From a virus, in the IMG/VR virus record IMGVR_UViG_3300026097_001139, positions 1-64,000 of that record: 64,000 nt of DNA. One strand, 5' to 3'. This document shows positions 10,578 through 28,193 of the stretch, piece by piece. The number at the start of each line of letters is the position of its first letter. Position 1 is the stretch's first letter. The position numbers and the translations under genes were made by a program. The notes beneath the pieces are model-generated. The model searched no databases. It was not told the DNA's origin and saw nothing but the letters and a program-made list of their open reading frames with translations.

Positions 10578-10996
10578 AAGTAGGGTTTACATGCAGTACA
10601 TTTGACCTGTTGCATGCTGGACATGTAGCAATGCTTCGTGAAGCAAAAGAACAATGCGATTATCTAATGGTAGGACTACAGGTTGATCCAAGTCGAGATC
10701 GTCCTAATAAAAACGCACCTGTGCAAACACTGGTAGAAAGATATACACAGCTACAAGCAGTGCGTTATGTAGACGAAATTGTAGTGTACGAAAACGAAAG
10801 AGATTTAGAAGACATTCTGGAAATGATGCACATAGATGTGCGGATTCTAGGCGAAGAATACCGAGAACACGATTTTACCGGAAAGGATATTTGTAAAAAA
10901 CGTGGTATTCAGTTATACTTTAACAAAAGAGAACACCGTTTTAGCAGCAGTGATCTAAGACGAAGAGTAGCCTCTCTAGAAAATGCAAAAACCTAA
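10574..10996 (+). CDS. Cytidylyltransferase (glycerol-3-phosphate cytidylyltransferase/TagD-like)
   Basis: FDLLHAGH (HxGH) and RFSSSDLR motifs, 140 aa. Confidence 0.88.
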   Translation: MKVGFTCSTFDLLHAGHVAMLREAKEQCDYLMVGLQVDPSRDRPNKNAPVQTLVERYTQLQAVRYVDEIVVYENERDLEDILEMMHIDVRILGEEYREHDFTGKDICKKRGIQLYFNKREHRFSSSDLRRRVASLENAKT

Positions 10997-12299
10997 AGAA
11001 AAACCGTCAAGTCTGTGCATGGCACCGTGGACTCACACCTATCTTAGTCCTCAGACAGAACGCAGAATGTGCTGTGCCAGCAGAGAACCTGCACAGAACT
11101 TCAAGCAGTATATCGACACTGATACAGGCACCGGCGAATACAATCCAAGCACACTAGAAGAACATTGGAACAGCGAACACATGAAAAATGTGCGTCGTAG
11201 AATGATGGCAGGCGAAACACTCAACGAGTGCGAAGTGTGCAATAACAAATTGCTGAATACAGATGTATACAGAGACTACTTCTGGCATCTGTTTAAGCAT
11301 CACTACAACGATATTTGGGAAAAAACCGACGAGTCAGGGCATACAGATATGCAACCTGTTAGTTGGGACTATCGTTTTAGTAATCTCTGCAACTTTAAAT
11401 GCAGAACCTGCGGGGACATGTTGAGTTCAGCCTGGGAAACTGAACAGCGTAAAAACAACATGATCAATTGGGACGATCCAAAAAACAACTGGATGCGTCC
11501 CGAAGTCCGCGCAGAAATATCCAAATTTCAAGACACTCAGATTGAAGCCGAGTTTTCACAAGCTGTAGAAGAACACAGAGTGCAAGAAGTTTATTGGGTA
11601 GGCGGAGAACCTTTGATGTACGAGCAACATTGGAGGTACATGTCCAGGATCGTAGAATTGGGAGACGGTCCTGGACTTTATGCTCGATACAATACAAATC
11701 TCAGTAGAGTTGAATACCAAGGCACGCACTTATACAGAGATATTATCAAAAATATAAGAGACTGGCAAATCTGTGCCAGCATCGACGGCACCGGGCCCAT
11801 TGGCGAGTATATTCGCACGGGATTGAATTATCAACAATTTTTAGACAACTTCAAACAAGGCGTTGATATACAGAAAACACGCAGGCAGATGCGATTGGAT
11901 TTTACACTCACGTTGCCGGGCTTGTTTGAAGTGGAGGCAATGCAACAACTTGCAGATGAGCTAGGCGTGGACTTACTTGCAAAAGTAATCTTTGGGTTTT
12001 CGCCTGACATTGTGCTGAGTCCACTGGCACTGCCTAAGGAATTGCTGGACAAACAGATCGATCAACTGGCGCACAGTGTACCTGATGGTGCACTCAAAGA
12101 TGTGCTAGTACAACTGAAAAACAGGCCAACGTTTCAGGAGCAATGGCCTGGTCAGTGGCAATCGGGCTTGGTTGCTGGAAAAAAACGTATACTGCGTTTA
12201 GAGAGTATTCGCAACGACAAGTACACTCTAGACGATATTTTACAGGAACACAATAAGGAAATTTATGACTGGTGGCAATCAATTCCAATTATTGGATAA
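10983..12299 (+). CDS. Radical SAM protein with N-terminal twitch-like domain
   Basis: CMAPW..MCC..CEVC; CNFKCRTC; VGGEPL. Confidence 0.92.
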   Translation: MQKPKEKPSSLCMAPWTHTYLSPQTERRMCCASREPAQNFKQYIDTDTGTGEYNPSTLEEHWNSEHMKNVRRRMMAGETLNECEVCNNKLLNTDVYRDYFWHLFKHHYNDIWEKTDESGHTDMQPVSWDYRFSNLCNFKCRTCGDMLSSAWETEQRKNNMINWDDPKNNWMRPEVRAEISKFQDTQIEAEFSQAVEEHRVQEVYWVGGEPLMYEQHWRYMSRIVELGDGPGLYARYNTNLSRVEYQGTHLYRDIIKNIRDWQICASIDGTGPIGEYIRTGLNYQQFLDNFKQGVDIQKTRRQMRLDFTLTLPGLFEVEAMQQLADELGVDLLAKVIFGFSPDIVLSPLALPKELLDKQIDQLAHSVPDGALKDVLVQLKNRPTFQEQWPGQWQSGLVAGKKRILRLESIRNDKYTLDDILQEHNKEIYDWWQSIPIIG

Positions 12300-13520: not shown

Positions 13521-15038
13521 ATGATACTGGGAATTAGCGCAGGGTTTCACGATGCGGGCGTATGTGTGCTTGACTATGACGGCAATATACACTTTGCATC
13601 TCACAGTGAAAGATTCAGCAAGAAAAAACATGACAAGCATCTGTGCAAGGCGATCCTAGATCGTTGTTTTGAATATCCAATTGAGCATGTTGCATACTAT
13701 GAGCGTCCTTGGATGCACAACATGCAACAATGGATCAGTGGACAATCAGTAAGTCAACACTGGAGTCTCAAAAGCACATTGAAATCAATACTGGGAGATT
13801 ATTGGAATCCACAGTTATCTACCAGTTGTTATCCGCATCATCTCAGTCATGCGGCTGCTGGCTTTCAGACTTCTCCTTATGACGATGCTACAGTAGTTGT
13901 GATTGATGCCATTGGTGAATTAGACACGATCAGTATATATTATGCATACTATGATAACAAAGGTCGTGCTCGTTATAGAAAGCTTTGGGGACAGAGATAT
14001 CCACACAGCATTGGTTTGTTTTACAGTGCGATCACACAGCGTGTTGGTCTGCGTCCAATGGATGAAGAATATATTACCATGGGAATGGCCGCATTTGGAC
14101 ACGAAAAAGCCAAGTCATTGATGACCAGCAATGTGCTCGAAACACAAATGAAACAGCGATATCTTTACAGTGATAACAAATTACAGTTCAAAGAAAACTT
14201 TCACACAGGTATAGATGCCAGTCATTGGGAAGACTACAGCAACGAAGAGATAGCATTTGCAGCTCAAACCATTGCAGAAGAACTTATTCAAGATGTAATG
14301 TATACTGCCGCTCGACTGGGAAACAGTAAAAATTTAGTTTACATGGGAGGAGTGGCACTAAACTGCGTAGCCAATCGCAACATTGGGCTCAACTTCGACA
14401 ATGTGTGGATCATGCCCAATCCTGGTGATGCCGGCAGTGGCTTGGGTTGTGCTGCACTGCATTATGGCAAGCGTGTCAACTGGGAACACCCATACACTGG
14501 CACCTGTATTGAAGGCGAGTATCCTGTAAATGAATTGCTAGATGAATTGTTATCCAATCGCATAGTAGGAGTAGCAGCCGGTGGTGCCGAGTTTGGCCCT
14601 AGAGCACTGGGCAATAGAAGTCTGCTGGCAGATCCTAGAGGCGATGACATTAAAGATCTAGTGAACACTATTAAAAAACGTCAAAAGTTTAGACCATTTG
14701 CTCCAGTGATACTGGAAGAATACGCAGATCAATATTTTGATATGCCTCGAGGATTTTCAAGCAGTCCGTACATGCAGGTAACAGCATACTGCAAACATCC
14801 AGAACTGTTTCCTGCTATTGTACATGTAGATGGCACAAGTCGAGTGCAAACAGTGCCCAAAGACAGTGCCAGTGGCATAAGACAACTACTAGAAAAATGG
14901 TATGTGTTAACAGATTGTCCTATGCTGCTGAATACCAGTTTAAACATTCGCGGAGAGCCAATGATTGACACTGTAGAAGACGCCATAAGATTCGAACAAT
15001 TGTATAACACTCCTGTGTGTACTCCTAAAAAAGGTTAA
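13521..15038 (+). CDS. O-carbamoyltransferase (NodU/CmcH/TobZ family)
   Basis: ILGISAGFHD, HHLSHAA, GGVALNC, EFGPRALGNRSLLADP, FRPFAP, HVDGTSRVQTV, LLNTSLN. Confidence 0.95.
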   Translation: MILGISAGFHDAGVCVLDYDGNIHFASHSERFSKKKHDKHLCKAILDRCFEYPIEHVAYYERPWMHNMQQWISGQSVSQHWSLKSTLKSILGDYWNPQLSTSCYPHHLSHAAAGFQTSPYDDATVVVIDAIGELDTISIYYAYYDNKGRARYRKLWGQRYPHSIGLFYSAITQRVGLRPMDEEYITMGMAAFGHEKAKSLMTSNVLETQMKQRYLYSDNKLQFKENFHTGIDASHWEDYSNEEIAFAAQTIAEELIQDVMYTAARLGNSKNLVYMGGVALNCVANRNIGLNFDNVWIMPNPGDAGSGLGCAALHYGKRVNWEHPYTGTCIEGEYPVNELLDELLSNRIVGVAAGGAEFGPRALGNRSLLADPRGDDIKDLVNTIKKRQKFRPFAPVILEEYADQYFDMPRGFSSSPYMQVTAYCKHPELFPAIVHVDGTSRVQTVPKDSASGIRQLLEKWYVLTDCPMLLNTSLNIRGEPMIDTVEDAIRFEQLYNTPVCTPKKG

Positions 15039-15046
15039 ACTAAAAA

Positions 15047-15754
15047 ATGTCAGAACTAGTAGAAATTATTGAAGTAGAACACTACACAGATCGCCTGTTT
15101 AGATTTAGAACAACAAAGCCAAAAGACTTTACTTTTCGGGCCGGTGAGTTTACAATGATAGGAATGGGGGATGATGATCTCATGAGAGCATACAGCATTA
15201 CCAGTGCCCCTGAAGATCCTTTTTTAGAATTTTACAGCATTAAAGTCCCGGACGGTCCGTTGACAAGTAGATTACAGCATGTTAAAATAGGAGATACAAT
15301 TGAAGTAGGTGATCGCCCAACTGGCAGTTTAACTACACAATTTGTAAAGCCTGGCAAAGACTTGTGGTTAATGGCTACCGGCACTGGTATTGCACCTTTT
15401 ATTAGTTTGTTAAGAGACGGTGAGATATTTGACATCTACAACAAAGTACACGTAACATGGACAGTGAGAACACCTGCTGAACTGTTGTGTTATCACGAAT
15501 TTTTACAGGATCTTGATATACATTACTTTCCAACAGTTACCCAAGAAGAATTTGCTAACACGGGACGTATACAAAAATTTATTGAAGCTGGTACCATTAT
15601 GGAAAACAGCAGTCCCGAAACAGATCGTGTAATGTTATGCGGAAGCATGGCTTTCAATAAAGACATGAAACAGTTGTTGCTAGCTGCAGGCTACGAAGAA
15701 GGCAACAAGAAAAATCCAGGTACGTTTGTGCTAGAACGTGCATTTGTAAGCTAG
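15047..15754 (+). CDS. fpr: Ferredoxin-NADP+ reductase
   Basis: [30 protein letters not shown]-terminal ERAF. Confidence 0.92.
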
Positions 15755-15761
15755 GAGAATT

Positions 15762-16103
15762 ATGACACATTTAGTAACTGATAATTGTATCAAATGCAAA
15801 CACACGGATTGTGTTGAAGTATGTCCAGTGGATTGTTTTTATGAAGGTCCGGACTTTCTAGTAATCAATCCTGATGAATGCATTGACTGTGCAGTTTGTA
15901 TTCCAGAGTGTCCTGTTGATGCCATTGTAGCTGAAGATGAAGTGCCCAATGACGGAGTTGATTGGTTTAAAATCAACGCTGAATTAGCTGAAAAATGGGC
16001 AGATAATAACATTACAGAAAAACTAGATCCTTTACCTGATCACGAATCATGGACAGATGTGCCAGGCAAGGTTCAATATATTCAACACTATATGGAAAGT
16101 TAG
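15762..16103 (+). CDS. fdxA: Ferredoxin (FdxA/FdI-type dicluster)
   Basis: [34 protein letters not shown]; AGGAG SD. Confidence 0.93.
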
Positions 16104-16105
16104 TA

Positions 16106-17125
16106 TTATTGGTCTCCTGAGCATTGTTGCCCGCAATGCTCGGCGCATGCTACTAACCTGCCGGTTTCGATAGTTTCTTTCCAGGTCGGTGGGATACTTT
16201 TAAACCATTCAACACATTCTTCTAGACTGTATTTAAATAAATCGTTTTTGGCTACTAACTGTTTAATTTGCCCATTTCGATAAATCATATCGCCTGCGCG
16301 ACCCGTGTATGTTTCTGGTGCATTGCCAATGTAGCAGCAAGGATATACTTTGCCATCGCTGCTTACATATATATTTCTATCTTTCATTGCTTCGCAAACA
16401 ATGGTTTTTTGATTATATATTTTTTGAGTATACTTGCTTGGAGAACTATCTATGAACTCTTTTGTAGTAAGGATGTGCTCAACATCAATTTTAAATTCCC
16501 GGCCGATCCAGTATATCACGTTTTTGTTTTTATCTATTACAGGACCATTATCGCGCCTGTGGTCTTTAACTTCAAATTGATCAAACCCTAGTTGTTTGCT
16601 AAGTTCACGTGCTTCTTCGATTTGATGTTGATTATGTTCAAACACCATAAAAACCCAACTAGTTTTACCGCCTGCATTTCTAACTGTTTGTGCATTCTCT
16701 AGTATTGTATTAAAATCAGTATTTCTTCTGTACAGTTTATGAGTATCTTCGAGGCCGTCTATTGCAAAGAAAATTCTGTCTGTCACACTAGCAAGATCTT
16801 TCCAAAAATCTAGATCACGTGCATTGCCGTTTGTGCTTATAATTAAATTAGCGGTTGGATTATGCTTACGAAAGTATTGCATAATAGCAGGCGTGTCGGG
16901 ATTCATTACAATATCGCCAAAGTTGCCGCACACATTTATTTTGTGAAGTTGTGCAATAAACTCTGGTTTAAATATTTGTTTTACTTCCTTTAGCGTCAAG
17001 TTCCGTTCAACATAACCTGCATTAGTAGGGTGCCCGAACACATTTCTCAGGCATAAAGGACACTCTGCGTTGCATAAACTTGATAGTTCTAAGTCTAATC
17101 GGCGTATAAACTTATAGTGATACAT
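16106..17125 (-). CDS. Radical SAM protein with C-terminal SPASM/twitch domain
   Basis: CNAECPLC; C-terminal C..GKVYPCC..CAEHC. Confidence 0.9.
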   Translation of the reverse strand: MYHYKFIRRLDLELSSLCNAECPLCLRNVFGHPTNAGYVERNLTLKEVKQIFKPEFIAQLHKINVCGNFGDIVMNPDTPAIMQYFRKHNPTANLIISTNGNARDLDFWKDLASVTDRIFFAIDGLEDTHKLYRRNTDFNTILENAQTVRNAGGKTSWVFMVFEHNQHQIEEARELSKQLGFDQFEVKDHRRDNGPVIDKNKNVIYWIGREFKIDVEHILTTKEFIDSSPSKYTQKIYNQKTIVCEAMKDRNIYVSSDGKVYPCCYIGNAPETYTGRAGDMIYRNGQIKQLVAKNDLFKYSLEECVEWFKSIPPTWKETIETGRLVACAEHCGQQCSGDQ

Positions 17126-18162
17126 TACAAATAACTTTCTAAACCACCTTTTCTAGAAAGATCTTGTGTACAGCAGCTGATTCCACCGTCCCAGAAGTAA
17201 CTGTGACGAAGTTCACTTACTATAGGATTTATTTTATGTTTTTCGCAGTAGTCAAATACCTGCTTATTATAGGCTGAGAATATGACATTCTCTTCATCTA
17301 GCACAAGGCAATTAACATCAAACACAGTGTCTTCGACAAATCCAACCCATTGACTTAAATAGCTGTCAACAAAGTTTGAAAATTCTGGAGTAGGTGTCTG
17401 TCCTGTCACATACCAACGCCCGTTAAAGTTTTCCTGTTTAAACTTGCCAACTTCCATAGCCGCCCATATTGAACTGTCCCAAATCTTACAAACGTCCCAA
17501 CCAGGAAAGTCGCCTGCTAGATCCAGCTGGTCGTCCCATTTACTACTTAATAACACACCTGGCTTGAGAATAGCAAACACTGCATCGCCATGGCCATCAG
17601 TTACAGCTTCGTGTATACGATAGTCTGGGCCTAGCACATTGTCAACAATCCAGCGTGTTTGTTCTGGTTTCAAATAGTCTGAATTGTCAAAGAAAACGTC
17701 TTTACCAACACGTACAATACAACTAGCACTGGCTCCGTTGAGCACACAGTTTTCGTCCCATTCTCCTTGGTGCGGATTAATCACTTGATCCGGATTGTGT
17801 TGTTCTAAATCTGCACAGATATTATCCAATTCTTGCACAGGCAGCACACGTAGTAATTTGTCGCCTAGTGTAATCTGCCAGTCTCTTGGCGTAAGAGGCG
17901 GAAGCGGAGCACCTTGATCAGCAATCTGTTGTTCATGAAAACGGTTTACATCGGGTAGGTCTGGTCTACGGACCTTTGCACCATATTCTTCTATGGTCTT
18001 TTGTAGGTTTTCTAGATCTTCGGCACTTTCTTCAAGTATCTGACTGAGTTGATTGAATACTTGTTTGTCTTCGATAAACTCAAAATGTTCTGGTGTAAAC
18101 ACACTGCCTATAATTACTTCTTCCAGTGGTTGCCAACTAGTGTAACTGTTAATTTTACTCAT
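17125..18162 (-). CDS. Amidinotransferase (glycine/inosamine-phosphate amidinotransferase family)
   Basis: INSYTSWQPLEEVIIG, PRD, GHGD, DGGISCCTQDLSR (catalytic Cys region). Confidence 0.85.
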   Translation of the reverse strand: MSKINSYTSWQPLEEVIIGSVFTPEHFEFIEDKQVFNQLSQILEESAEDLENLQKTIEEYGAKVRRPDLPDVNRFHEQQIADQGAPLPPLTPRDWQITLGDKLLRVLPVQELDNICADLEQHNPDQVINPHQGEWDENCVLNGASASCIVRVGKDVFFDNSDYLKPEQTRWIVDNVLGPDYRIHEAVTDGHGDAVFAILKPGVLLSSKWDDQLDLAGDFPGWDVCKIWDSSIWAAMEVGKFKQENFNGRWYVTGQTPTPEFSNFVDSYLSQWVGFVEDTVFDVNCLVLDEENVIFSAYNKQVFDYCEKHKINPIVSELRHSYFWDGGISCCTQDLSRKGGLESYL

Positions 18163-18170
18163 AATTTAAT

Positions 18171-19295
18171 TTATTCTTCCCATACATATGGATCTTTTTT
18201 GCGTACAGCAAAAGTTAGATACGTGTTTATTTTTTCCATGTCATGATCGTTGCGCATTACTAGAAATTCATCAGCAAAGTGCAATTCTATTTTCTGCTGT
18301 AAAGCGAGATTTAACAATTCATTTCTTCGGTGGTATTCATCTGGTAATGAATGTATGCTAGGTAATACTATTCCGTCAGCATCACATGTTTGTAAATACC
18401 ATTCGAGCATCATATGCCAATCGTTGTTGTCAAATTCTCCATCTTCATAAGATAGTTTTATTTTATACATATCACAATAACGGCTGATAGTGCTTCTTTG
18501 CATTGGATAACTAAGATTTTTTCCATATTCGCTAGCCCAACTAACAAAACTAATAAATTTTTTGTCTGACAAATCAATTGGCTGGCTAGTGTAGTAATCG
18601 CCGGGGATCCTAAAAAATCCGCCTGGGCTTCGACGACCGTATTCTTCTCCTTTGAGTAAAATTCTAACGTCGATACTTGCCCTAGTGTAGCCTTCGTTAT
18701 TGTTTACGTTGCCGTGTATATGTTCTTGGAAAAATAAGTGACTTTGTCCGGGGCTCAAATTTACTGGCCAGGCATGCTTTAAACTTTCTTCTTCGAATTT
18801 TTTCATTGACCATTTTTCTAATATTGTTTGACGGGTAATCCTACGGCTATCTTCTAAGTCCAAGATCCACATTGTATTAGTATCTCGAGCCTCAGTTAGA
18901 GGATTCCAAAAGGTTCTGCACCCTCGTCCATTGCCGACAAAGATGCCTTGGTGAAAGATCAGTTTTCTATTTTCTTTGGCTTGATTCGGAATAACAACAC
19001 GCATAGTTGCTTGTCGTTGAATCAAATAAGGCAAATTGTCGATTATAGGTTCAGCATATTCTTTAGCAAAAGAATCAATTAACTCCATCCAGTCTTTACG
19101 TAGGAATGCTGACTGAACATAGTATTGTATTTTTAATATTTCGTCAGGGGTAAATTTTTTGTGAATAGTTTCGAAACAGTTAACACTAGGGTGAATTTCT
19201 TGAACAACTTTTAGGGCCCATTTGGTGAAATCATATCTACCAAGGTCATAATTTAAGGTTTTATTGTTCCAGTGTATTTGATGACTCTTAAGCAT
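18171..19295 (-). CDS. Fe(II)/2-oxoglutarate oxygenase-like domain (H-Q-G variant) fused to a resolvase-like C-terminal domain
   Basis: FHQG..W.PLT..HIHGNVNN..TRASIDVR; C-terminal MQR..I..YC..DGIV..SI..LP, reminiscent of the sporadic carbohydrate cluster families (TIGR04324/TIGR04323, from recall). Confidence 0.7.
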   Translation of the reverse strand: MLKSHQIHWNNKTLNYDLGRYDFTKWALKVVQEIHPSVNCFETIHKKFTPDEILKIQYYVQSAFLRKDWMELIDSFAKEYAEPIIDNLPYLIQRQATMRVVIPNQAKENRKLIFHQGIFVGNGRGCRTFWNPLTEARDTNTMWILDLEDSRRITRQTILEKWSMKKFEEESLKHAWPVNLSPGQSHLFFQEHIHGNVNNNEGYTRASIDVRILLKGEEYGRRSPGGFFRIPGDYYTSQPIDLSDKKFISFVSWASEYGKNLSYPMQRSTISRYCDMYKIKLSYEDGEFDNNDWHMMLEWYLQTCDADGIVLPSIHSLPDEYHRRNELLNLALQQKIELHFADEFLVMRNDHDMEKINTYLTFAVRKKDPYVWEE

Positions 19296-19355
19296 ACATA
19301 TTCCCTTTTGTAGCTATACTTATTGTAAGTAAAACTTGTATTTTTACTTTCTGGG

Positions 19356-20483
19356 TCATCTATCAATACCCTTTATTTTAAAATCTTTTTTCATTTGCTC
19401 TAGCATCAGTTCTAGCTCTGTCCAGAGCACAGTTTCAAATCCGCCGTTGTAGAAATGTTCGTAATTATGCTGAATAGTCGGCATCATTGCCTTGTACATG
19501 GTTGTTCGTTCATCAATTGTCATACTATCTATCTTTTTGCATAACTCAGCTACTTTTTCTAGTCTACGATAATCATCTGGCTCTTGATCATAGCTTTCGT
19601 CCCAAAAATCGTCGAATGTTCTAAATCCATAAAGCTTGAGATACTCTAAACTGCCTTGTGGAGCAACCAGTATAAATGGCATTTGTAAACAGATTGGCTT
19701 GAATGTTTTTTCTGTAAGATGATGTCTGCGACCAGAATACACTGTTTCTGTAACAACATAGGCAAAACTTTCTGCTGATTCTTCAAACAAACTCAACCAA
19801 CAACTGTGCATAGGATGATCTGTTTCGCCTGGGAATTGCCAAGGTAAATCAGCATCACAAAGTGTCTGTTCAATGTCTGGATAATGTACGCTGAATTTTG
19901 CAGCAATATCTTCTATGTTTGTATTTTCCACCGGACAGGTTCTTGGACAGCTTAACCAAGCATTTTGTATTTTTTGTTTAATAAATTGATACATTAGCAG
20001 CACTCTATGATCACGTTTACCGCCTACGATGCGTGTAGGACATATAAAACTGCGGTTCATGGTCCTGTCTTCTGGTGCAGGCATCAACCATGAACGATTG
20101 TATCCTCGATACCAATCCATGGCTGCCCACCCGTGAAAGAAATAGTAATAATGTTTCCATCCGTAATCATCGCATATTTGTTCAACAAACTCGCTGTTGT
20201 GCTCACTGGTAACAATTGCTTTACCAAATGCTTCCCTGTCAAAGTCAAGATCTCTACTGCGTTCCGCTACCTCGCCAAAAAGTGGTCTGTGTAGGTCCAA
20301 ATGAATTGGCTCTTGGTCGTGAAAGTATATATAATGTAGTTCATGGAGATCATGTCCATAATTATATAAACTATCCGGATCACTTCTTCCGGGAGGATCA
20401 CAGAAATACATTCTGCATAAAGGTATATTTTGTTTTATCCACGGCCAAAACACATTGTTATAAAGTTCGTCAATTCTAATCAT
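19356..20483 (-). CDS. Putative glycosyltransferase-like protein (GT10-like motif)
   Basis: VVTETVY..HLTEKTFKPI..PFILV..GFRTF..WDESYD. Confidence 0.5.
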   Translation of the reverse strand: MIRIDELYNNVFWPWIKQNIPLCRMYFCDPPGRSDPDSLYNYGHDLHELHYIYFHDQEPIHLDLHRPLFGEVAERSRDLDFDREAFGKAIVTSEHNSEFVEQICDDYGWKHYYYFFHGWAAMDWYRGYNRSWLMPAPEDRTMNRSFICPTRIVGGKRDHRVLLMYQFIKQKIQNAWLSCPRTCPVENTNIEDIAAKFSVHYPDIEQTLCDADLPWQFPGETDHPMHSCWLSLFEESAESFAYVVTETVYSGRRHHLTEKTFKPICLQMPFILVAPQGSLEYLKLYGFRTFDDFWDESYDQEPDDYRRLEKVAELCKKIDSMTIDERTTMYKAMMPTIQHNYEHFYNGGFETVLWTELELMLEQMKKDFKIKGIDR

Positions 20484-23481
20484 GTTTGATATTTTTTACC
20501 TAGGAAATCGTGCACCCAAAGGTGTACATGCTGTTCGTGCTAGAGATATAGATCATGCGTGTGAAATGTCTCGTACTCGATATTATTGGATTGTTGATTA
20601 CTTATCTGATTACAGAGAGTGGGATTTTCTTTGGGAACCAGCACCATGGGAATCACATCAGCGTCATGCTTGGCCTAACCAGCATCAACTAGATGGTGGC
20701 ACATATCTGGTGCCAAAAGCAGGCTTCGCAGAAACCAATTGGCATGAATCGCCCGGTGTGCACAAATACAGCGACCCTGATCTATGGTACATACCAGACT
20801 ACATAGACCCAGCAAGTATTGATTTACAGTGGAGTCCAGATCCAATGGATCCACCTTACATATACGAGTTTCCTGTAGAATGGGGATGGAACAGAATAGG
20901 TGGACCAGAATATAGAATGCCTAATGCTGTGGGTAGAAAATTTGTCAGTGATTTTGTTGCAACAACTCAACATGATAGATCACTGTTTGATATACAGGAT
21001 AATCTAGCTGATGACGATCCACTATTCCGCTGGCGCCCAAATCCAACAGAACCTCCTTACGTGTATGTGTTCGGCAATCAATGGTGGCCGGCTACGCAAA
21101 GAACCAGTGTTACGTATACAGTAGAAGGTGCAACAGAAAAGAAATATGTTGCAGATATTTCCGCCACTCGTATTGCGGACACCGCGCACTATCGTACGCT
21201 GGAAAACTGCAAGTTTGACTACAGTTGGGAGCCAGATCCAGCGGATCCACCTTATGTGTATGTGTTCGGCAATCAATGGTATTCTGGCGAAATCATGCCC
21301 ACTGTGGAGTACAATGTACCTGGTGCCACTGAACGCAAATTCCTGGAATATCCGCAGGCAACACTGTTTGCTACACAAGAAAATTGGTACGTGCCTGATC
21401 ATGAACGTGACTTTGACTTTGACCGCAGTTGGTGCCCAGATCCTGGAGATCCGCCTTACATGTATGTGTTTGGCAATCAGTGGCACAACGCTGAAATAAT
21501 GAGTACCATTGAATATCATGTGCCCGGTGCAACAGAGCGCAAGTTTATGGAAGAGCCTGTTGCTACACTACTTGCTGACCAAGACGGTTGGACAGTGCCC
21601 GAAGAGGTTGATGCAGATGCAGTAGACTTTAGTTGGATACCAGATCCCGGGGATCCTCCTTACATTTATCACTTTGGCACTGAGTATCAAAGCAGTGTAA
21701 ATTTAACCTACACTGTAGAAGGTGCTACGGAAATTAAATTTGCAGGTGACATACCCAAGCGCAAGCCTGATACAAGAGCAGTTAAAACCCTTGATATTTT
21801 TTATATGGATCGTTCTAATGCAGTATCTCGCAGTCGCTTTGAACAGTTACAAGAACGCTACCCTGGCATACAGAAAGCACGATATTTTGGCAGTGTGTTT
21901 GACACTGTAAAGAGATGCGCTGGTAAATCTAAAACCCAGCGTTTTTGGGTAATCGGTAGCGAAAATGACTATTCAGAATTTGACTTTGATTGGCATCCAG
22001 AACCTTGGCAACGGCACATGACTCATGTGTTTGGAAGTCAGTGGAATAAATGGAGCGATACATTCTTAATCAATCGTTGGGAGTTTGACAGACACAGTCG
22101 TTGGGCAAAAAGCATTGAAGAATTTCCAAACTTGAACTTTGTGGAAAATCAAACAGTGCAAGCACCAGCGGACGCTTACAGCATTTACTTAATTGATCAC
22201 GGCAATCCAGAGAGCTTGCAAACATTTGAATACCTTGAACAGAACTACAGAGTGGTTAAACAGGCTAGATATTTTGACAACTATTTAGACACACTAAAAC
22301 GACTTGTTGCTGACGTAGAAGAAGAATACATTTGGGTTGCCAGCTCTGTATGTGACTATAGCCAGTTTGATTTCAGTTGGCAACCCGAAGCATGGCAACG
22401 TGAAATGCTTCATGTGTTTCCTAGTAACGAACAAAAGTTTGGTGATACGTTTTTCTTGCATGTGCCAAGTTTTAAGCGTGGCTGTGATGTTGAGTTATTG
22501 GATTGGTTTGAAACCGTGAACTATGTAGAAGTACAGCAAGCACCTCGATGGCCAATACCAGTGGTAAAACATAATGAATCTACACATGTTATGGCAGTAA
22601 AGAATCACACAGCGCAAGCGCCACTCTCACTGTTTACCAATGAATCTGCTCCAGTGAAATATCCTACGGTGAGTCTATGGCGCCGCGAAACCAAAACTGT
22701 TGTTCCGTTAGACCGCGGTGCCTCCAGTGTAATTGTGCCAAAAGAAGCACATGCCTTAGTTCGAACACAGATATATGACTACCCATACATAGACAAAACA
22801 CATAATACAAATGCAGTTGAGCCACTGGAGATAGTGTTTGTCAGCAACGGAGAAACCGTGGCACAGACGCATTTACAGCGTCTACGTGCGGCTCTGCCCG
22901 GCGATACACAGTTACACGTAGTAGAAGGTGTAAACGGACGACTAGAAGCATATAAACAAGCTGCTAATAGCGTAAAAACCGATTGGTTTATCCTAGTACC
23001 TGCTAAATTGGCGGTTTCTGACGAGTTTGACTGGTTTTGGCAACCAGACCGATTACAACAGCCAAAGCACTATATTTTCCATGCTTACAACCCTGTTACG
23101 GGCTTAGAGTATGGGCACATGGCTGCTGTTGCGTATAATCGTGAACTATTATTACAAAGTGCAGGAGATCAGCTGGATCTAGCCATGGAAAAAGCACACG
23201 AAGTAGTTCCAGTTCTAAGCGGCGTTGCAGAATACGGCGATGACATAACAGAGTGGCGCACAGCTTTTCGTGAAGTGCTAAAGTTGCGTGCAAGTTTGCC
23301 TGATATTGAAAATGAGTACAGACTTGGTGTTTGGAAGGAGTGCACTAGTAAGGTAACCCAAGAAGCAGTAGTTGCGGCAATGGAATACTATGACAGTGTT
23401 AATGGCAACGTAGACAAGCTACAAAATTCCTTTAGTTGGGATTGGGTAAACCGCCATTACGAAAAATTGAGTGCCAACTAA
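20482..23481 (+). CDS. 999-aa modular Trp/Pro-rich protein with four GT-A-like modules and five internal repeats
   Basis: Four DIF(Y/V)..W(V/I)..FDF.W.P modules plus five W.P.P.(D/E)PPY.Y.F repeats. Confidence 0.6.
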   Translation: MFDIFYLGNRAPKGVHAVRARDIDHACEMSRTRYYWIVDYLSDYREWDFLWEPAPWESHQRHAWPNQHQLDGGTYLVPKAGFAETNWHESPGVHKYSDPDLWYIPDYIDPASIDLQWSPDPMDPPYIYEFPVEWGWNRIGGPEYRMPNAVGRKFVSDFVATTQHDRSLFDIQDNLADDDPLFRWRPNPTEPPYVYVFGNQWWPATQRTSVTYTVEGATEKKYVADISATRIADTAHYRTLENCKFDYSWEPDPADPPYVYVFGNQWYSGEIMPTVEYNVPGATERKFLEYPQATLFATQENWYVPDHERDFDFDRSWCPDPGDPPYMYVFGNQWHNAEIMSTIEYHVPGATERKFMEEPVATLLADQDGWTVPEEVDADAVDFSWIPDPGDPPYIYHFGTEYQSSVNLTYTVEGATEIKFAGDIPKRKPDTRAVKTLDIFYMDRSNAVSRSRFEQLQERYPGIQKARYFGSVFDTVKRCAGKSKTQRFWVIGSENDYSEFDFDWHPEPWQRHMTHVFGSQWNKWSDTFLINRWEFDRHSRWAKSIEEFPNLNFVENQTVQAPADAYSIYLIDHGNPESLQTFEYLEQNYRVVKQARYFDNYLDTLKRLVADVEEEYIWVASSVCDYSQFDFSWQPEAWQREMLHVFPSNEQKFGDTFFLHVPSFKRGCDVELLDWFETVNYVEVQQAPRWPIPVVKHNESTHVMAVKNHTAQAPLSLFTNESAPVKYPTVSLWRRETKTVVPLDRGASSVIVPKEAHALVRTQIYDYPYIDKTHNTNAVEPLEIVFVSNGETVAQTHLQRLRAALPGDTQLHVVEGVNGRLEAYKQAANSVKTDWFILVPAKLAVSDEFDWFWQPDRLQQPKHYIFHAYNPVTGLEYGHMAAVAYNRELLLQSAGDQLDLAMEKAHEVVPVLSGVAEYGDDITEWRTAFREVLKLRASLPDIENEYRLGVWKECTSKVTQEAVVAAMEYYDSVNGNVDKLQNSFSWDWVNRHYEKLSAN
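20785..21780 (+). repeat. Five tandem ~67-aa coding repeats (W.PDP.DPPY.YVFGNQW..EY.VPGATE.KF)
   Basis: Visible in the protein and in near-identical DNA (gtgtatgtgttcggcaatcaatggt at ~21061 and ~21256); boundaries approximate. Confidence 0.85.
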
Positions 23482-24298
23482 TGTTATTTTGATATGCATT
23501 TATTTTTTTGCTCAAAAAAACTGTATCAGGTAGACACTTTGGGTTAATGCCAGGAAATTCAGACCCTGGATTGTAACCTGGATCGAGTACCACTTTTTTT
23601 ATGCTGTCTAGGATTTCTTGTTCGTGTTCAATAATACGTTGTTCTATTGAAGAAAAATCATAATCAAACACTTGTTTCAGCCATGTTAGTGATTGTAGCG
23701 GAAATGGATGCAAATCCATAAATTTTTCTTTGAAGATTTTTTTTAATTGTTTTTCTGACTCCTTAACACTGAACCCTATAACTTTGTTAATACTCGGTAA
23801 TAACCGACTATATGTATCTTTATACACTTTTAATAGAACTTCTCTTTCTGGCGGAGGATGACCTACGGGCATAGTAAGTTCGTTAAATGACGAATGGTGT
23901 ATCTGTGCTTCGGTATTGTCTAAATAGGCCATTGTTGTGGTAATTAGATTAAGTTGATTGATCATTTTGCCAATGAGATAATCAGAAATTTCGATTGTAG
24001 GATCTCGTTCCCACTTTAAACATGATTTGCCATTGTGATTGTGTAAGTTTTCGTGTCTGTTTGGCTCAGTCCAAACAACTATTACTAAATCATCTTTTGT
24101 AAATTTGTGCAATTTATTTGCAAGCACAACTTGATTAGCAATGTATTGATTTGCACATGCGCAACGGCCGTAGTTATATGTTTTTATATCAGTGGCAAAT
24201 TGAATAATTTCTGGCCACATAGACCACCAATAACTGGTGAGACTACACCCAAATGCAAATATTCGCTCCGGTTTTTTATTATACAGAGGAGTTGACAT
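23432..24298 (-). CDS. SGNH/GDSL-like protein
   Basis: FAFGCSLT, NYGRCACANQYI, late DLHP motif. Confidence 0.55.
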   Translation of the reverse strand: MSTPLYNKKPERIFAFGCSLTSYWWSMWPEIIQFATDIKTYNYGRCACANQYIANQVVLANKLHKFTKDDLVIVVWTEPNRHENLHNHNGKSCLKWERDPTIEISDYLIGKMINQLNLITTTMAYLDNTEAQIHHSSFNELTMPVGHPPPEREVLLKVYKDTYSRLLPSINKVIGFSVKESEKQLKKIFKEKFMDLHPFPLQSLTWLKQVFDYDFSSIEQRIIEHEQEILDSIKKVVLDPGYNPGSEFPGINPKCLPDTVFLSKKINAYQNNISWHSIFRNGGLPNPN

Positions 24299-24968
24299 AC
24301 TGTGAACTCAACGGAAAGATTTCTGCGATAACCTGTGCAACAGCTCGGGCAATTTCCATGTGTTCTTTTTGTGTACCATTTGCGGCCCGGAGTTCGATAT
24401 AGTGGATCCAGCTACGCAGTGTGCCATTCATGTACATGCGACTTTTAGTAAGTCCTTCGGGTAATACTGCACGAGCCTGTTCTTTTGCAATGTTATTTTC
24501 AATGGCCCAGCGATATGCTTTACGAGCTTCGATAATCACACGCTCTTGTGCCAGTGCCCATTCTGTAGCCAGCTCTGTGTCAAGTCTGTTGTCTTCGTCT
24601 AGCTCGATTGAATTTTGACGATTTGTTGTATCCTGTAGTCTGCATTCACGAATTTCGAACTCTAAATCCTTCACTGGATCTGCATAACGCTGTGAAAACT
24701 CTTGGAAGCTGAAACTGCGATGACGTAGGATTTGTCTAGCAATGTCTCGTGTGGTTTCGATCTCTAAGCAAGCAGATACCATTTCAAACGGCGACCAGTG
24801 TGCATGCTTTGCAAGGTAGTTGAGTAGGCGAGTAGAGGTCTCTGTATTAAATTGATTCGATGGATTAGATACTCTAGCCGCATACGCAATAAGATCTTGC
24901 ACATCTTCAATACCTTCGTGTTCAAAGTCAGAGCTTGGTTGACTGTAACTTACAAGTTTTACTTTCAT
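24279..24968 (-). CDS. thyX: FAD-dependent thymidylate synthase
   Basis: HWSPFE, RHRSFSFQEFSQRY, EQARAVLP, Q.EH. Confidence 0.96.
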   Translation of the reverse strand: MKVKLVSYSQPSSDFEHEGIEDVQDLIAYAARVSNPSNQFNTETSTRLLNYLAKHAHWSPFEMVSACLEIETTRDIARQILRHRSFSFQEFSQRYADPVKDLEFEIRECRLQDTTNRQNSIELDEDNRLDTELATEWALAQERVIIEARKAYRWAIENNIAKEQARAVLPEGLTKSRMYMNGTLRSWIHYIELRAANGTQKEHMEIARAVAQVIAEIFPLSSQYVNSSV

Positions 24969-26187: not shown

Positions 26188-27447
26188 TTACTGTGATTCG
26201 TATTTGGCCCAAGTGCCAAAAGGAGGCTGTGGATCATCGTTGCTGTGAATAATCCAAACAGTATCGCAGTAGTTTGGATCTCCCCAGCTACCAAATGGAT
26301 ATCCGTCTGTGAACACCACCAGTTTTTTAGGTTCAATGTCTGCTTCCTTGAGATAGTTGAATATACACTCAAAACTAGTGCCACCCCATCCCTGACACTG
26401 ATACTCGGTGATGTCTGCGATGTTATCACTGTTGAAGTCTTGTGGATTGTAAACTTCTGTGTCAAAAGTAAACAAGTGAATTCTATAGTCAGTGAACGTA
26501 TCCATAATGCCTTGCACTTCGCTCAAGAAGTCACGGCCTTGTTCCTCAGAGATACTGCCGCTCATGTCAATTGCTACAGCAATATCAATAGCATCTGTGG
26601 TATCCATGCCTGGTAAAATAGCATCCATATGCCAACTGCGACGACTAACCTTTGAAAATGTGTAATCGTTCTTGATAATGCTTTGCAACTGCTGTTGTAA
26701 CAATTCACGCCAATTCATTTTAGGTTCAGTGAGATTCTGAATCATGCGTTGAACGTTGCCTGGAATTTCACCTGCCTTGGCAGTTTGAGCGGCACTGATC
26801 ATTGCTTCTTTGATTTCGTCTTTGATCTGTTGCCGTTCTTCTTCAGTGAGCTTAACAGGACCGGGCTTGTCGCCTTCCCCTTCTTCACCATTGCCAGCAC
26901 CTTCCATGATGTCTTCTAAGTGTTCATCTAACACTTTGTCTAACATTTTTTGTGCAGATGATTCGTCTGCATTTTCCAGCAAATCGTCGTATACTTGCTC
27001 AAAACTCCAATCTTCGTACTTGGCATCATACAAGCACTCTACAGTGGTAATAAATTCACCTACATTGTGTTTTTTAAGGTCACTGTTAACACAGTAGTCT
27101 TGTGCAATGTTGCTTAACATCCTGTCGCGGTCGCCTGTGCGAGCTAAGTGATCATATACTACATGTAGAACTTCGTGGCCGAATAAAAACTCGACTTCAC
27201 GCGGCTTAAGCATTTTGATAAATCTTGTATTGTAATAAAAGTGACGACCATCAGTAGCGGCAGTAGGGCACCATTCATCGGCATTTACCAGCTTGAGTCG
27301 GGTAGCAAGATTGCCAAAAAAGCTTGCACGGAGGAGCATGCCAATTCGTGCGCCTACAAGTATTTCTCGAACTTCTCTGTCCAGTGCTGGATCAGTAGGT
27401 CCGATGAGATCGGCAAATTTATTTTTGTCTTCTGCGGTTGTCGACAT
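26188..27447 (-). CDS. Metallopeptidase-like (HExxH) + VWA domain protein (DUF2201-like; MoxR partner)
   Basis: TAATDG, HEVLH, DMSGS MIDAS, GGTSF, FTDG. Confidence 0.88.
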   Translation of the reverse strand: MSTTAEDKNKFADLIGPTDPALDREVREILVGARIGMLLRASFFGNLATRLKLVNADEWCPTAATDGRHFYYNTRFIKMLKPREVEFLFGHEVLHVVYDHLARTGDRDRMLSNIAQDYCVNSDLKKHNVGEFITTVECLYDAKYEDWSFEQVYDDLLENADESSAQKMLDKVLDEHLEDIMEGAGNGEEGEGDKPGPVKLTEEERQQIKDEIKEAMISAAQTAKAGEIPGNVQRMIQNLTEPKMNWRELLQQQLQSIIKNDYTFSKVSRRSWHMDAILPGMDTTDAIDIAVAIDMSGSISEEQGRDFLSEVQGIMDTFTDYRIHLFTFDTEVYNPQDFNSDNIADITEYQCQGWGGTSFECIFNYLKEADIEPKKLVVFTDGYPFGSWGDPNYCDTVWIIHSNDDPQPPFGTWAKYESQ

Positions 27448-27473
27448 GCTTGCTCCTCACTTTCTATACATAT

Positions 27474-27502
27474 AGTATAGTTGATTGGCGTTTATTTGTC
27501 AA
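27474..27502 (-). promoter_or_regulatory. Sigma70-type (early) promoter
   Basis: TTGACA-N17-TATACT upstream of the GAGGAG SD. Confidence 0.85.
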
Positions 27503-27522
27503 GTTAAAACCTGATATAACCC

Positions 27523-27879
27523 TTATCCACATGCCAGTCTAAATAAACTTAATTCTCTATCACTGGCAATATAAATTCTCAAATCTCTGTAAGCATTGCT
27601 CCAGCTCCAGTGATTATTGACTGCCAGGGGCAGTGAGTTATCAAAATTTCCCGGACCTTGTGGTAGATTAAATTGATTACGCATAGAATAATGTGTTTTT
27701 ATTTCTTGCCATATTCGAATTTCGGCACTAAATCCGTAGGTATCAATAAACCATTGTTGAGCTTCTATAAAATGTAAAGGACCTTGATTTATTGTAATTC
27801 TAGCAGGAAAACTTATATGATATTTAAACCATTCAAAATAGTTAAACCTTTTATCAAGGCGTTGCACAGTGTATTTCAC
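27523..27879 (-). CDS. Hypothetical protein
   Basis: 118-aa ORF, AGGA SD, GTG start. Confidence 0.65.
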   Translation of the reverse strand: MKYTVQRLDKRFNYFEWFKYHISFPARITINQGPLHFIEAQQWFIDTYGFSAEIRIWQEIKTHYSMRNQFNLPQGPGNFDNSLPLAVNNHWSWSNAYRDLRIYIASDRELSLFRLACG

Positions 27880-27899
27880 GGTCTAGTCCTAAATATTGT

Positions 27900-28193
27900 T
27901 TAATATTTAAGCTGAAACAGTACCGCGTCATGTGCGCACTTAAAGACAAATCGTACTCGCCATTCCGGTGTTTGAGTGTAGTTGTTGTACACAGCTACAC
28001 TGTTCCACCACCAGCGTTTTCCTTTGGTACCAAACTCCTGGCGAATCTTCCATAAATTTTTTTTCAGTAGTTCGTCATTGTTGTTATAATAACGTTCAAC
28101 TGCTGGCAGTGTGCTGTCTTTCCACTCGTCTGGCGTTATAGTTAGTGATCTATTATTGTCCACTATTCCCATGGGAAATCGCCATCTTGCCAT
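27900..28193 (-). CDS. Hypothetical protein
   Basis: ORF; C-terminus F..AHDAVLFQLKY resembles that of 27523..27879; start uncertain. Confidence 0.6.
   Translation of the reverse strand: MARWRFPMGIVDNNRSLTITPDEWKDSTLPAVERYYNNNDELLKKNLWKIRQEFGTKGKRWWWNSVAVYNNYTQTPEWRVRFVFKCAHDAVLFQLKY

What the first reader, a model, noticed from the sequence alone, without database searches (positions are those of the whole stretch)
18171..19295. Candidate Fe(II)/2OG halogenase: H-Q-G replaces H-x-D, while its paralog keeps H-C-D
Seen: codons at 18945..18953 read His-Gln-Gly. The aligned position in paralog 28163..29290 (28946..28954) reads His-Cys-Asp. The distal His and 2OG-binding Arg are retained in both. 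Known: replacing the facial-triad carboxylate with Ala or Gly is the signature of non-heme Fe/2OG halogenases (SyrB2 HxA; WelO5 and BesD HxG). Inference: a hydroxylase/halogenase pair in one phage, possibly halogenating a sugar or nucleotide.
Basis: partly seen in the sequence, partly recalled or inferred. Interest (0 to 1): 0.8.

Follow-up and report, generated by a model that had tools for sequence, protein, structure and literature searches.

The report
Phage sugar-pathway oxygenase with Gly-Gln iron site
A giant uncultured phage carries a two-domain iron/2-oxoglutarate enzyme whose usual iron-binding aspartate is a conserved glycine, always paired with one particular glutamine. It is either an oxygenase with a rebuilt iron site (more likely) or the first virus-encoded radical halogenase, and only an assay can decide.

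Summary
On the minus strand, codons 18953..18945 read His115-Gln116-Gly117 in a 374-aa protein, and its 36%-identical paralog (28163..29290) reads His-Cys-Asp. Both keep the distal His and the Arg-x-Ser 2OG site.

The Gly is not sporadic:
- It is kept in 125 close homologs, 22 cluster representatives and 9 distant bacterial homologs, and across 93 homologous genes all four Gly codons are used.
- No acidic residue is specific to the Gly forms.
- Gly is always coupled to Gln190, four residues before the distal His. This is the register where the sugar oxygenase HygX (H-x-G...E-x3-H) keeps its relocated iron ligand.
- Gly and Asp forms interconvert at least five times within one clade, and the phage's own H-C-D paralog is nested among H-Q-G forms.

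Homologs sit in sugar loci. In jumbo phages these hold an SDR epimerase, a cupin and an amidinotransferase; in bacteria they are capsule/EPS loci.

My reading:
- non-halogenating oxygenase with a rebuilt Gly/Gln site, about 0.55;
- radical halogenase, about 0.25.

AspH shows that a 2-His site does not by itself give halogenation. This scan has met the same family on other genomes before, with the same unresolved verdict.

The parts
18171..19295 (-). P0001, 374 aa. A two-domain enzyme: an N-terminal PhyH-like Fe(II)/2OG oxygenase domain (about residues 1-235) fused to a C-terminal TIGR04323-like alpha/beta domain (about residues 240-370).
   Evidence: ORF. NCBIfam: TIGR04324 E 1.3e-19 (residues 28-212) and TIGR04323 E 6.7e-13 (residues 258-361), both below cut-off. 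AF2 model pLDDT 89.6. Fold matches.
18945..18953 (-). His115-Gln116-Gly117. This is the proximal metal motif, with Gly in place of the facial-triad carboxylate.
   Evidence: Aligned to the H-Q-D of PtlH.
18711..18728 (-). Gln190-Glu191-His192-Ile193-His194-Gly195. His194 is the distal metal ligand. Gln190 (-4) is strictly coupled to Gly117. Glu191 is common but dispensable.
   Evidence: HygX E-x3-H register from PMC13374393.
18669..18686 (-). Thr204-Arg205-Ala206-Ser207-Ile208-Asp209. This is the Arg-x-Ser motif that binds the 2OG C5 carboxylate.
   Evidence: R205 is invariant in all 108 rows; S207 is nearly invariant there (105 of 108; A, G or T in three). Aligned to the PtlH R-M-S-M-D.
18174..18578 (-). 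C-terminal domain (residues 240-374), with a serine-recombinase/resolvase catalytic-domain fold. Conserved Q266, R267, S313, R324, F340, E343. Function unknown.
   Evidence: Alignment A2. AF2 pLDDT 85.6. VIA-align wide: Z 12.7 to 3bvp and 4bqq, with the next fold class at Z about 7. ESM Atlas structure rows.
28163..29290 (-). P0002, the 375-aa paralog with the same two domains. It has His113-Cys114-Asp115 and also keeps the Gln at -4 (QERVHG).
   Evidence: Pfam PhyH E 2.3e-4. Nested among H-Q-G forms in the tree.
17125..18162 (-). P0005, an amidinotransferase 8 nt downstream of P0001 on the same strand. The catalytic Cys region reads GGISCCTQD.
   Evidence: phmmer against PDB: AGAT 2jdx E 5.6e-14, plus HsvA, StrB1 and SxtG. 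Homologs lie within 3 genes of the oxygenase in 29 of 80 viral loci.
16106..17125 (-). P0006, a radical SAM/SPASM enzyme. It is the last gene of the co-directional run and overlaps P0005 by 1 nt.
   Evidence: Pfam Radical_SAM 1.1e-10 and SPASM 7e-4. Coordinates.
19356..20483 (-). P0003, a 375-aa protein of a virus-only family, 60 nt upstream of P0001. It has paralogs at 199..1179 and 48030..49175. Its only functional lead is a weak GT10-like signal.
   Evidence: Atlas GT10 rows score 0.78-0.79, a lead only.

Best explanation
P0001 is an active Fe(II)/2-oxoglutarate oxygenase of a sugar-tailoring pathway, with a rebuilt iron site. Iron is held by His115 and His194, and 2OG is anchored by Arg205/Ser207. 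The aspartate of the usual H-x-D has been replaced by Gly117. The space it leaves is served by Gln190, four residues before the distal His, which is the register where the aminoglycoside oxygenase HygX places its relocated Glu ligand. In this reading Gln190 either ligates iron through its amide oxygen or organises a water or substrate hydroxyl at that position. The enzyme then performs O2-dependent hydroxylation, or a related oxidation, of an amino- or guanidino-sugar (or cyclitol-like) intermediate. That intermediate would be made together with the adjacent amidinotransferase, and in relatives with an SDR epimerase/dehydratase, a small cupin and an aminotransferase.

Shown: the fold, the motif, its conservation, the Gly-Gln coupling and the sugar context. 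Inferred: iron binding by Gln190, the reaction type and the substrate. The paralog P0002 (H-C-D plus Gln) is a secondary return to the carboxylate form.
For: Fold and intact Fe/2OG residues.

Gly117-Gln190 coupling:
- Gln is present in 22/22 HxG representatives, 125/125 close homologs and 9/9 bacterial HTG homologs.
- It is present in only 3/86 HxD representatives, and all three are in the P0002 clade.
- Every other in-clade HxD lineage has lost it.

HygX precedent in the same PhyH-like sugar-oxygenase fold class: H-x-G...E-x3-H, with the acid relocated to -4 (PMC13374393). HygX's relatives AviO1, EvdO2 and EvdMO1 are structural neighbours of the model at Z 12.4-12.7.

At least five Gly<->Asp switches occur inside one 99/99-supported clade. 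This is easiest to understand if the two site designs are functionally interchangeable.

AspH shows that a 2-His 2OG enzyme can be a plain hydroxylase (PMC6817910).

Context is glycan biosynthesis, where halogenation is, as far as I know, unknown:
- viral neighbours are an SDR epimerase/dehydratase in 50/80 loci, a cupin in 45/80 and an amidinotransferase in 29/80;
- bacterial homologs lie beside Bac_transf, Wzz/GNVR, Poly_export and GT2 genes.
Against: The -4 residue is Gln and never Glu in well over 150 sequences, although Gln to Glu is a single base change. So a carboxylate is selected against there, which a simple 'relocated ligand' does not predict. A neutral amide that donates hydrogen bonds to a bound anion would fit a halide site. 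The HygX equivalence rests on motif register and a review's statement, not on a residue-level structural alignment made here. Gln as a permanent iron ligand in a 2OG oxygenase is unusual (from memory, IPNS Gln330 is a resting-state ligand only).
Confidence: 0.55

Rival explanations
1. Radical halogenase. Gly117 opens a coordination site for chloride or bromide, and Gln190's amide N-H stabilises the bound halide. A Cl-Fe(IV)=O species abstracts a hydrogen from a sugar-type substrate and the halogen rebounds. P0002 (H-C-D) would be the hydroxylating counterpart.
For: The HxG/A motif, with retained distal His and 2OG Arg, is the accepted marker used to mine Fe/2OG halogenases (PMC13519999; PMC11186838). 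The Gly is conserved under synonymous codon variation. No acidic column is specific to HxG forms, and Glu191 is Gly, His or Ala in 6 of 22 representatives. Gln, never Glu, at -4 suggests selection for a neutral hydrogen-bond donor next to the open site. The fold is the PhyH-like class of SyrB2 and CurA Hal, and CurA Hal is the top Foldseek hit at E 1.5e-8. Gly/Asp toggling plus G-type and D-type paralogs in one genome resembles halogenase/hydroxylase pairs.
Against: AspH (2-His) does not halogenate with chloride, and HygX (HxG) is not a halogenase. PMC13519999 itself warns that HxA/G searches give false positives. The NCBIfam scan at E<=0.1 gave no halogenase family, only TIGR04324 and TIGR04323 plus a weak, sub-cut-off thioredoxin match. 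PtlH and other hydroxylases match the model as well as or better than the halogenases. The enzyme is a common core gene of phage and bacterial glycan loci, and I know of no halogenated glycans. A Glu-length side chain at -4 reaches the metal in HygX, so Gln190 may occupy the halide's place.
Confidence: 0.25
2. Substrate-ligating oxidase. The site vacated by Asp is used by the substrate itself (a hydroxyl, amine, guanidino or carboxylate group), with Gln190 positioning it. The outcome is not simple hydroxylation but, for example, oxidative cyclisation, desaturation, ketone formation or epimerisation, as in HygX or SnoN/SnoK-type chemistry.
For: In HygX the substrate hydroxyl and C-H lie next to iron at the gap left by the Gly (PMC13374393). 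Structural neighbours include the cyclising or epimerising enzymes SnoK, SnoN, AviO1 and EvdO2. The pathway partners make polar, chelating amino/guanidino sugars.
Against: No substrate is known. Nothing in the sequence distinguishes this from the best explanation. Repeated reversion to HxD would remove the substrate-binding site, yet these lineages persist.
Confidence: 0.12
3. Non-catalytic or iron-free protein. The oxygenase domain has decayed into a binding module for the C-terminal domain or for a pathway partner.
For: Loss of a metal ligand is a common route to pseudo-enzymes. Pfam PhyH does not detect P0001.
Against: His115, His194, Arg205, Trp130 and Phe188 are invariant, and Ser207 and Asp209 nearly so, across forms down to about 20% identity. 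There is strong purifying selection on Gly117 and Gln190. 2-His sites bind iron and turn over in AspH and in the FIH D201G variant.
Confidence: 0.05

Closest known systems
NCBIfam TIGR04324 'sporadic carbohydrate cluster 2OG-Fe(II) oxygenase' with TIGR04323 'LIC12192 family sporadic carbohydrate cluster protein'
   Same: Both halves of P0001 and P0002 match these two models (E 1e-19 to 2e-24 and 7e-13 to 3e-8). Bacterial homologs lie in surface-polysaccharide loci, as the family names imply.
   Different: Scores are below the curated cut-offs (70.8 against 150; 48.7 against 55). Here the two models' regions are fused into one polypeptide, as in eight of the ten wider-family representatives tested (the other two are short and matched TIGR04324 only). 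The H-x-G/Gln-x3-His site is a derived state within an otherwise HxD family. I found no paper on either family.
HygX, the hygromycin B orthoester-forming Fe/2OG oxygenase (PDB 4XCA/4XCB)
   Same: A PhyH-like fold class acting on an amino-sugar substrate. It has H-x-G at the proximal motif and a functional residue exactly four positions before the distal His (PMC13374393). Its relatives AviO1, EvdO2 and EvdMO1 are structural neighbours of the model.
   Different: HygX has Glu at -4, whereas this family has an invariant Gln and never Glu. No detectable sequence similarity to HygX was found. HygX has no resolvase-like C-terminal domain as far as the review describes.
SyrB2 / CurA Hal carrier-protein-dependent Fe/2OG halogenases (PDB 2FCT, 3NNF)
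   Same: PhyH-like DSBH fold (Foldseek E 1.5e-8 to 6e-6). A 2-His motif with a small residue in place of the carboxylate, and Arg-anchored 2OG.
   Different: Identity is only 10-13% in the structural alignments. There is no hit to any halogenase model in NCBIfam. There is no carrier protein or NRPS/PKS context; the context is glycan genes. There is a Gln at -4 that could fill the halide site.
PtlH, 1-deoxypentalenic acid 11-beta-hydroxylase (PDB 2RDN)
   Same: It is the best sequence and structure match among solved proteins (profile E 9.6e-10; Z 14.2 over 210 residues). The motif F-H-Q-D / H / R-x-S-x-D is in the same register.
   Different: PtlH has the canonical Asp and is a single-domain terpenoid hydroxylase.
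AspH, human aspartate/asparagine beta-hydroxylase
   Same: A natural 2OG oxygenase whose iron is held by only two His, with an R-x-S 2OG site (PMC6817910).
   Different: It belongs to a different DSBH subfamily (Pfam Asp_Arg_Hydrox), has a protein substrate and a TPR partner domain. It is a functional analogy only.

Membership tests
Fe(II)/2OG radical halogenases (SyrB2, CurA Hal, WelO5, BesD, AdaV types) | DSBH fold with a distal His and an Arg/Ser-anchored 2OG site | tested here: met
   AF2 pLDDT 89.6. Z 14.2 to PtlH, and CurA Hal/SyrB2 hit by Foldseek. H194 and R205 invariant, S207 nearly so.
Fe(II)/2OG radical halogenases (SyrB2, CurA Hal, WelO5, BesD, AdaV types) | H-x-Ala/Gly in place of H-x-Asp/Glu, conserved among orthologs | tested here: met
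   HQG at 18945..18953. Found in 125 close homologs, 22 representatives and 9 bacterial homologs. All four Gly codons are used.
Fe(II)/2OG radical halogenases (SyrB2, CurA Hal, WelO5, BesD, AdaV types) | The vacated coordination site is free for a halide (no other protein ligand) | tested here: inconclusive
   No acidic column is specific to HxG forms. However, the invariant Gln190 sits at the register of HygX's relocated ligand.
Fe(II)/2OG radical halogenases (SyrB2, CurA Hal, WelO5, BesD, AdaV types) | Sequence membership in a described halogenase family | tested here: not met
   The NCBIfam scan at E<=0.1 returned only TIGR04324, TIGR04323 and a weak thioredoxin hit. The PDB sequence search found PtlH, not a halogenase.
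Fe(II)/2OG radical halogenases (SyrB2, CurA Hal, WelO5, BesD, AdaV types) | Halide-dependent C-H halogenation | not testable with these tools
   This needs an enzyme assay with the (unknown) substrate.
NCBIfam TIGR04324 / TIGR04323 | Score at or above the curated cut-off (150 and 55 bits) | tested here: not met
   70.8 and 48.7 bits for P0001; 86.7 and 33.5 bits for P0002. The proteins are homologous but outside the curated subfamilies, as are all ten wider-family representatives tested.
Pfam PF05721 PhyH | Gathering score of 22 bits | tested here: not met
   P0001 has no hit at E<=1. P0002 scores exactly 22.0 bits, E 2.3e-4. By fold both belong to the PhyH-like class.
HygX-type relocated-ligand oxygenases (H-x-G...E-x3-H) | Gly at the proximal motif | tested here: met
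HygX-type relocated-ligand oxygenases (H-x-G...E-x3-H) | Glu four residues before the distal His, acting as metal ligand | tested here: not met
   The residue is Gln190 in every HxG member and never Glu. Whether it binds metal was not testable.
Amidinotransferases (AGAT/StrB1/SxtG), for the neighbour P0005 | Significant full-length similarity, with the C-terminal catalytic Cys region | tested here: met
   AGAT 2jdx E 5.6e-14 in three collinear stretches. GGISCCTQD aligns to GGGFHCWTCD.

The most novel reading that the evidence does not exclude
P0001 and its hundreds of viral and bacterial relatives are a new family of free-standing Fe(II)/2OG radical halogenases. They would act on a sugar, nucleotide-sugar or aminocyclitol-type intermediate, with Gln190 as the halide-stabilising residue. 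That would make them the first virus-encoded enzymes of this class, and would imply halogenated glycans on phage or bacterial surfaces. Natural Gly-to-Asp revertants such as P0002 would provide built-in hydroxylase controls.
Probability: 0.25. Interest if true: 0.85.

Novelty: new variant of a known kind. Interest (0 to 1): 0.55.

Why it matters
If it is a halogenase, it would open a large, uncharacterised and mostly viral family of carrier-independent C-H halogenases acting on polar sugar-type substrates. That is a substrate class no known Fe/2OG halogenase covers. It would also predict an unknown kind of halogenated glycan.

If instead Gln190 serves the iron site, the family is a natural and widespread 2-His-plus-amide variant of the facial triad. 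It has toggled back and forth with the canonical 2-His-1-Asp design several times. That is a useful evolutionary test bed for what the carboxylate ligand actually contributes.

Either way, the gene marks a conserved amidino/guanidino-sugar tailoring module in roughly 350-kb T4-like jumbo phages. The product and target of that module are unknown.

Tried and rejected
- Plus-strand reading of the given coordinates: full of stops. The genes are on the minus strand.
- Cultured-phage relatives: megablast of 16000..24000 and tblastn of P0001 against the INPHARED phage collection (50,697 records) found nothing.
- PHROGs: no family for P0001, P0002 or P0003.
Context was therefore taken from the search for related loci instead.
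- Glu191 as a substitute carboxylate ligand: rejected as obligatory, because it is Gly, His or Ala in 6 of 22 HxG representatives and is also present in the HxD paralog clade.
- Asp209, Glu287, Glu343 and Asp17 as compensating acids: rejected, because they are equally conserved in HxD forms.
- A single origin of HxG as one clean clade: rejected, with 0% of bootstrap trees showing one change.
- A phylogenetically independent test of the Gly-Gln coupling: only 3 well-supported contrasts exist, too few for significance. The coupling rests on the raw 22/22 against 3/86 counts and on the repeated loss of Gln in revertants.
- Sequence route to HygX, SyrB2 or CurA: the PDB profile searches (A1, A3) reached only PtlH, AndA, EasH, PhyH and GriE.
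- PDB sequence search for the C-terminal domain: only chance-level hits.
- Literature: no paper for 'sporadic carbohydrate cluster' or for '2OG halogenase' with 'phage'. My recollection that SyrB2 Ser231 (-4 from His235) lines the chloride pocket could not be verified in the library and is not used as evidence.
- Sequencing runs: no RNA holder is listed. The one full holder is labelled soil metagenome and may be the source sample. Nothing about expression or habitat is concluded from this.
- The ESM Atlas GT10 lead for P0003 scored 0.78-0.79, below the level at which it counts.
Full report
**The object.** The coordinates given hold an ORF on the minus strand (18171..19295, 374 aa, P0001). The plus strand is closed by many stops. 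The stated paralog is also on the minus strand (28163..29290, 375 aa, P0002).

**Host genome.** The window is part of an 88,386-bp IMG/VR virus record that CheckV rates 25% complete. Relatives of the gene lie on viral contigs rated 23-59% complete at 85-217 kb. One of these (216.7 kb) carries a Gp23-type major capsid gene. The carriers therefore look like T4-like jumbo phages of roughly 350 kb.

**What the protein is.** NCBIfam detects two parts in both paralogs:
- an N-terminal match to TIGR04324, 'sporadic carbohydrate cluster 2OG-Fe(II) oxygenase' (E 1.3e-19 for P0001, 1.8e-24 for P0002);
- a C-terminal match to TIGR04323, the 'LIC12192 family' (E 6.7e-13 for P0001, 3.4e-8 for P0002).

All of these scores are below the curated cut-offs. 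Pfam PhyH just reaches its threshold on P0002 and misses P0001.

An AlphaFold2 model built on a 13-sequence alignment has mean pLDDT 89.6. Residues 1 to about 235 match PhyH-like oxygenases:
- PtlH at Z 14.2 over 210 residues;
- FtmOx1, GriE, EvdMO1, AviO1, EvdO2, PHYHD1 and EctD at Z 12.3-13.2;
- by Foldseek, CurA Hal E 1.5e-8, PtlH 9e-8 and SyrB2 5e-6.

A family profile aligns to PtlH at E 9.6e-10, with H-x-D, the distal His and R-x-S-x-D in register. This fixes His115/Gly117, His194 and Arg205/Ser207 as the metal and 2OG positions.

The C-terminal 135 residues, modelled alone (pLDDT 85.6), have the serine-recombinase catalytic-domain fold. They match at Z 12.7 to 3bvp and 4bqq, and the next fold class scores about 7. 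The function of this domain is unknown.

**Is the Gly sporadic? No.** Evidence from three searches:
- The search for homologous proteins returned 362 relatives. All 125 of the retrieved close homologs that could be matched carry H-x-G, at 54-62% identity to P0001.
- 273 viral contigs encode a relative. The 80 kept all read HQG.
- Nine bacterial MAG loci (Planctomycetota, Alphaproteobacteria, Binataceae, Thiohalocapsa) encode 24-28% identical proteins that read HTG.

Across 93 homologous genes the Gly codon is GGT 57, GGC 20, GGA 9, GGG 7. That is synonymous drift under amino-acid conservation.

An exhaustive HMMER search of 1.84 billion cluster representatives gave 1,439 hits. Among the best 150, the triad column reads HxD 90, HxG 32 and HxA 1. 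His194 and Arg205 are invariant and Ser207 nearly so in those that cover the region. All ten wider-family representatives tested match TIGR04324 below its cut-off. The eight of full length are fusions of the same two domains.

**Does another residue fill the site?** Column statistics over 108 representatives show no Asp/Glu column that is specific to the HxG forms. Asp209, Glu287, Glu343 and Asp17 are equally conserved in HxD forms. Glu191 is Gly, His or Ala in 6 of 22 HxG representatives.

One column is specific. Gln190, four residues before the distal His, is Gln in:
- 22/22 HxG representatives;
- 125/125 close homologs;
- 9/9 bacterial homologs.

It is Gln in only 3/86 HxD representatives, all three in the P0002 clade. 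It is never Glu.

An earlier follow-up in this scan, on another genome, pointed to HygX. I checked that lead in the literature. [quoted passage not shown] P0001 reads H-Q-G...Q-E-H-I-H, that is Gln-x3-His in the same register. HygX's relatives AviO1, EvdO2 and EvdMO1 are among the model's structural neighbours. A non-acidic residue does sit exactly where a proven relocated ligand sits in a related sugar oxygenase.

**Evolution of the site.** I built a careful IQ-TREE (LG+C20 PMSF, with the triad and Gln190 columns removed, rooted on eight HxD outgroup rows). It places all HxG forms in one 99/99-supported clade of 35 rows, 22 HxG and 13 HxD. Well-supported branches force at least five Gly<->Asp changes, and no bootstrap tree needs only one.

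P0002, together with its two relatives P0127 and P0128, is nested in a 95/93-supported set with five H-Q-G forms, including P0001. It still carries Gln at -4. It is therefore best read as a return from Gly to Asp, not as the ancestral hydroxylase. Every other in-clade HxD lineage has lost the Gln, with M, S, P, N, E, G or A there instead. Gly and Gln thus travel together, and the pair has been exchanged for Asp repeatedly.

**Context.** In the window the co-directional run has gaps of 60, 8 and -1 nt:
- P0003, a virus-only family, weakly GT10-like;
- P0001;
- P0005;
- P0006.

P0005 is an amidinotransferase. It matches AGAT at E 5.6e-14, and also HsvA, StrB1 and SxtG, and its catalytic Cys region is kept. 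P0006 is a radical SAM/SPASM enzyme.

In 80 viral loci, the most frequent genes within three positions of the oxygenase are:
- an NAD-dependent epimerase/dehydratase (50 loci);
- a small Asp_Arg_Hydrox-like cupin (45);
- the amidinotransferase (29);
- DegT-type aminotransferase fragments (20).

In bacteria the HTG homologs lie beside an initiating sugar transferase, Wzz/GNVR, Poly_export, an ABC transporter, GT2 genes and an SDR. These are capsule or exopolysaccharide loci. The substrate is therefore a sugar-type intermediate, probably carrying an amine or guanidino group in the phages.

**Halogenase or not.** In favour of a halogenase:
- HxG/A with an otherwise intact site is the accepted mining marker (PMC13519999, PMC11186838).
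- The strict Gln, never Glu, at -4 would suit a hydrogen-bond donor to a bound anion.

Against a halogenase:
- HygX is HxG and is not a halogenase.
- The mining paper itself warns of false positives.
- No halogenase family is detected by sequence.
- The enzyme is a common core gene of glycan loci, where I know of no halogenation.
- Repeated Gly/Gln-to-Asp exchange is more easily tolerated if the two designs do the same job.

I therefore put a non-halogenating oxygenase with a rebuilt Gly/Gln site at about 0.55. A halogenase gets about 0.25, a substrate-ligating non-hydroxylating oxidase about 0.12, and an inactive protein about 0.05. What is shown is the fold, the motif, the coupling and the context. 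The role of Gln190, the reaction and the substrate are inferred.

**Prior sightings and novelty.** This scan has already met the same family on several other phage genomes. Independent follow-ups there reached the same 'Gly-Gln site: rebuilt iron site or halogenase' verdict, and I did not count those as evidence. New points here are:
- the nested H-C-D-plus-Gln paralog in the same genome;
- the at least five forced Gly/Asp switches on a rooted careful tree;
- the bacterial HTG homologs in EPS loci;
- the resolvase-fold assignment of the C-terminal domain.

I found no publication on the family.

**Limits.**
- The HygX equivalence is by motif register and literature, not by a residue-level superposition.
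- Only the best 150 of 1,439 family hits were examined.

Noticed in passing
window 1167..12299 (+), also 16106..17125, 33703..35238, 38212..39177, 50329..51585: There is an exceptional density of radical SAM genes, at least eight in a row on the plus strand. Three of them have the SPASM domain N-terminal to the radical SAM core. Further copies lie elsewhere in the window.
   Followed up: partly
window 13521..15754 (+): A carbamoyltransferase (Carbam_trans_N/C, E 1e-49) is followed by an FAD/NAD ferredoxin-reductase-type protein at the end of the radical SAM run.
   Followed up: no
window 26188..30462 (-): The H-C-D paralog P0002 and two small ORFs sit between a MoxR-type AAA ATPase (29362..30462) and its usual DUF2201 metallopeptidase/VWA partner (26188..27447), as if inserted into that pair.
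   Followed up: no
window 18174..18578 (-); model m5c49a4ca5f62: The TIGR04323-like C-terminal domain has the serine-recombinase (resolvase) catalytic-domain fold, at Z 12.7 and well above the next fold class. It has its own invariant Gln-Arg, Ser, Arg and Phe-x-x-Glu positions. Whether the position of the recombinase nucleophile is kept was not examined.
   Followed up: partly
L049, L058, L064, L072, L074 (viral loci): These contigs carry two divergently oriented H-Q-G copies about 3 kb apart. The second copy reads Arg-x-Ala instead of Arg-x-Ser at the 2OG site.
   Followed up: no
L003-L011 (bacterial MAG loci): Distant H-T-G homologs (24-28% identity, all with Q-E-H-x-H-G) occur in Planctomycetota, Alphaproteobacteria, Binataceae and Thiohalocapsa MAGs. 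They lie inside capsule/EPS loci with Bac_transf, Wzz/GNVR, Poly_export and GT2 genes.
   Followed up: partly
window 20482..23481 (+): A 999-aa ORF diverges from the oxygenase operon and has no Pfam or PHROGs family. Related segments (about 27% identity) recur near the oxygenase in 15-16 viral loci.
   Followed up: no
window 42671..42823 (-); 24279..24968 (-); 30525..32966 (-): tRNA-Cys and tRNA-Trp genes, a ThyX thymidylate synthase, and an 813-aa fibre-like protein with a C-terminal Peptidase_G2 intramolecular-chaperone domain. All are consistent with a large tailed phage.
   Followed up: no
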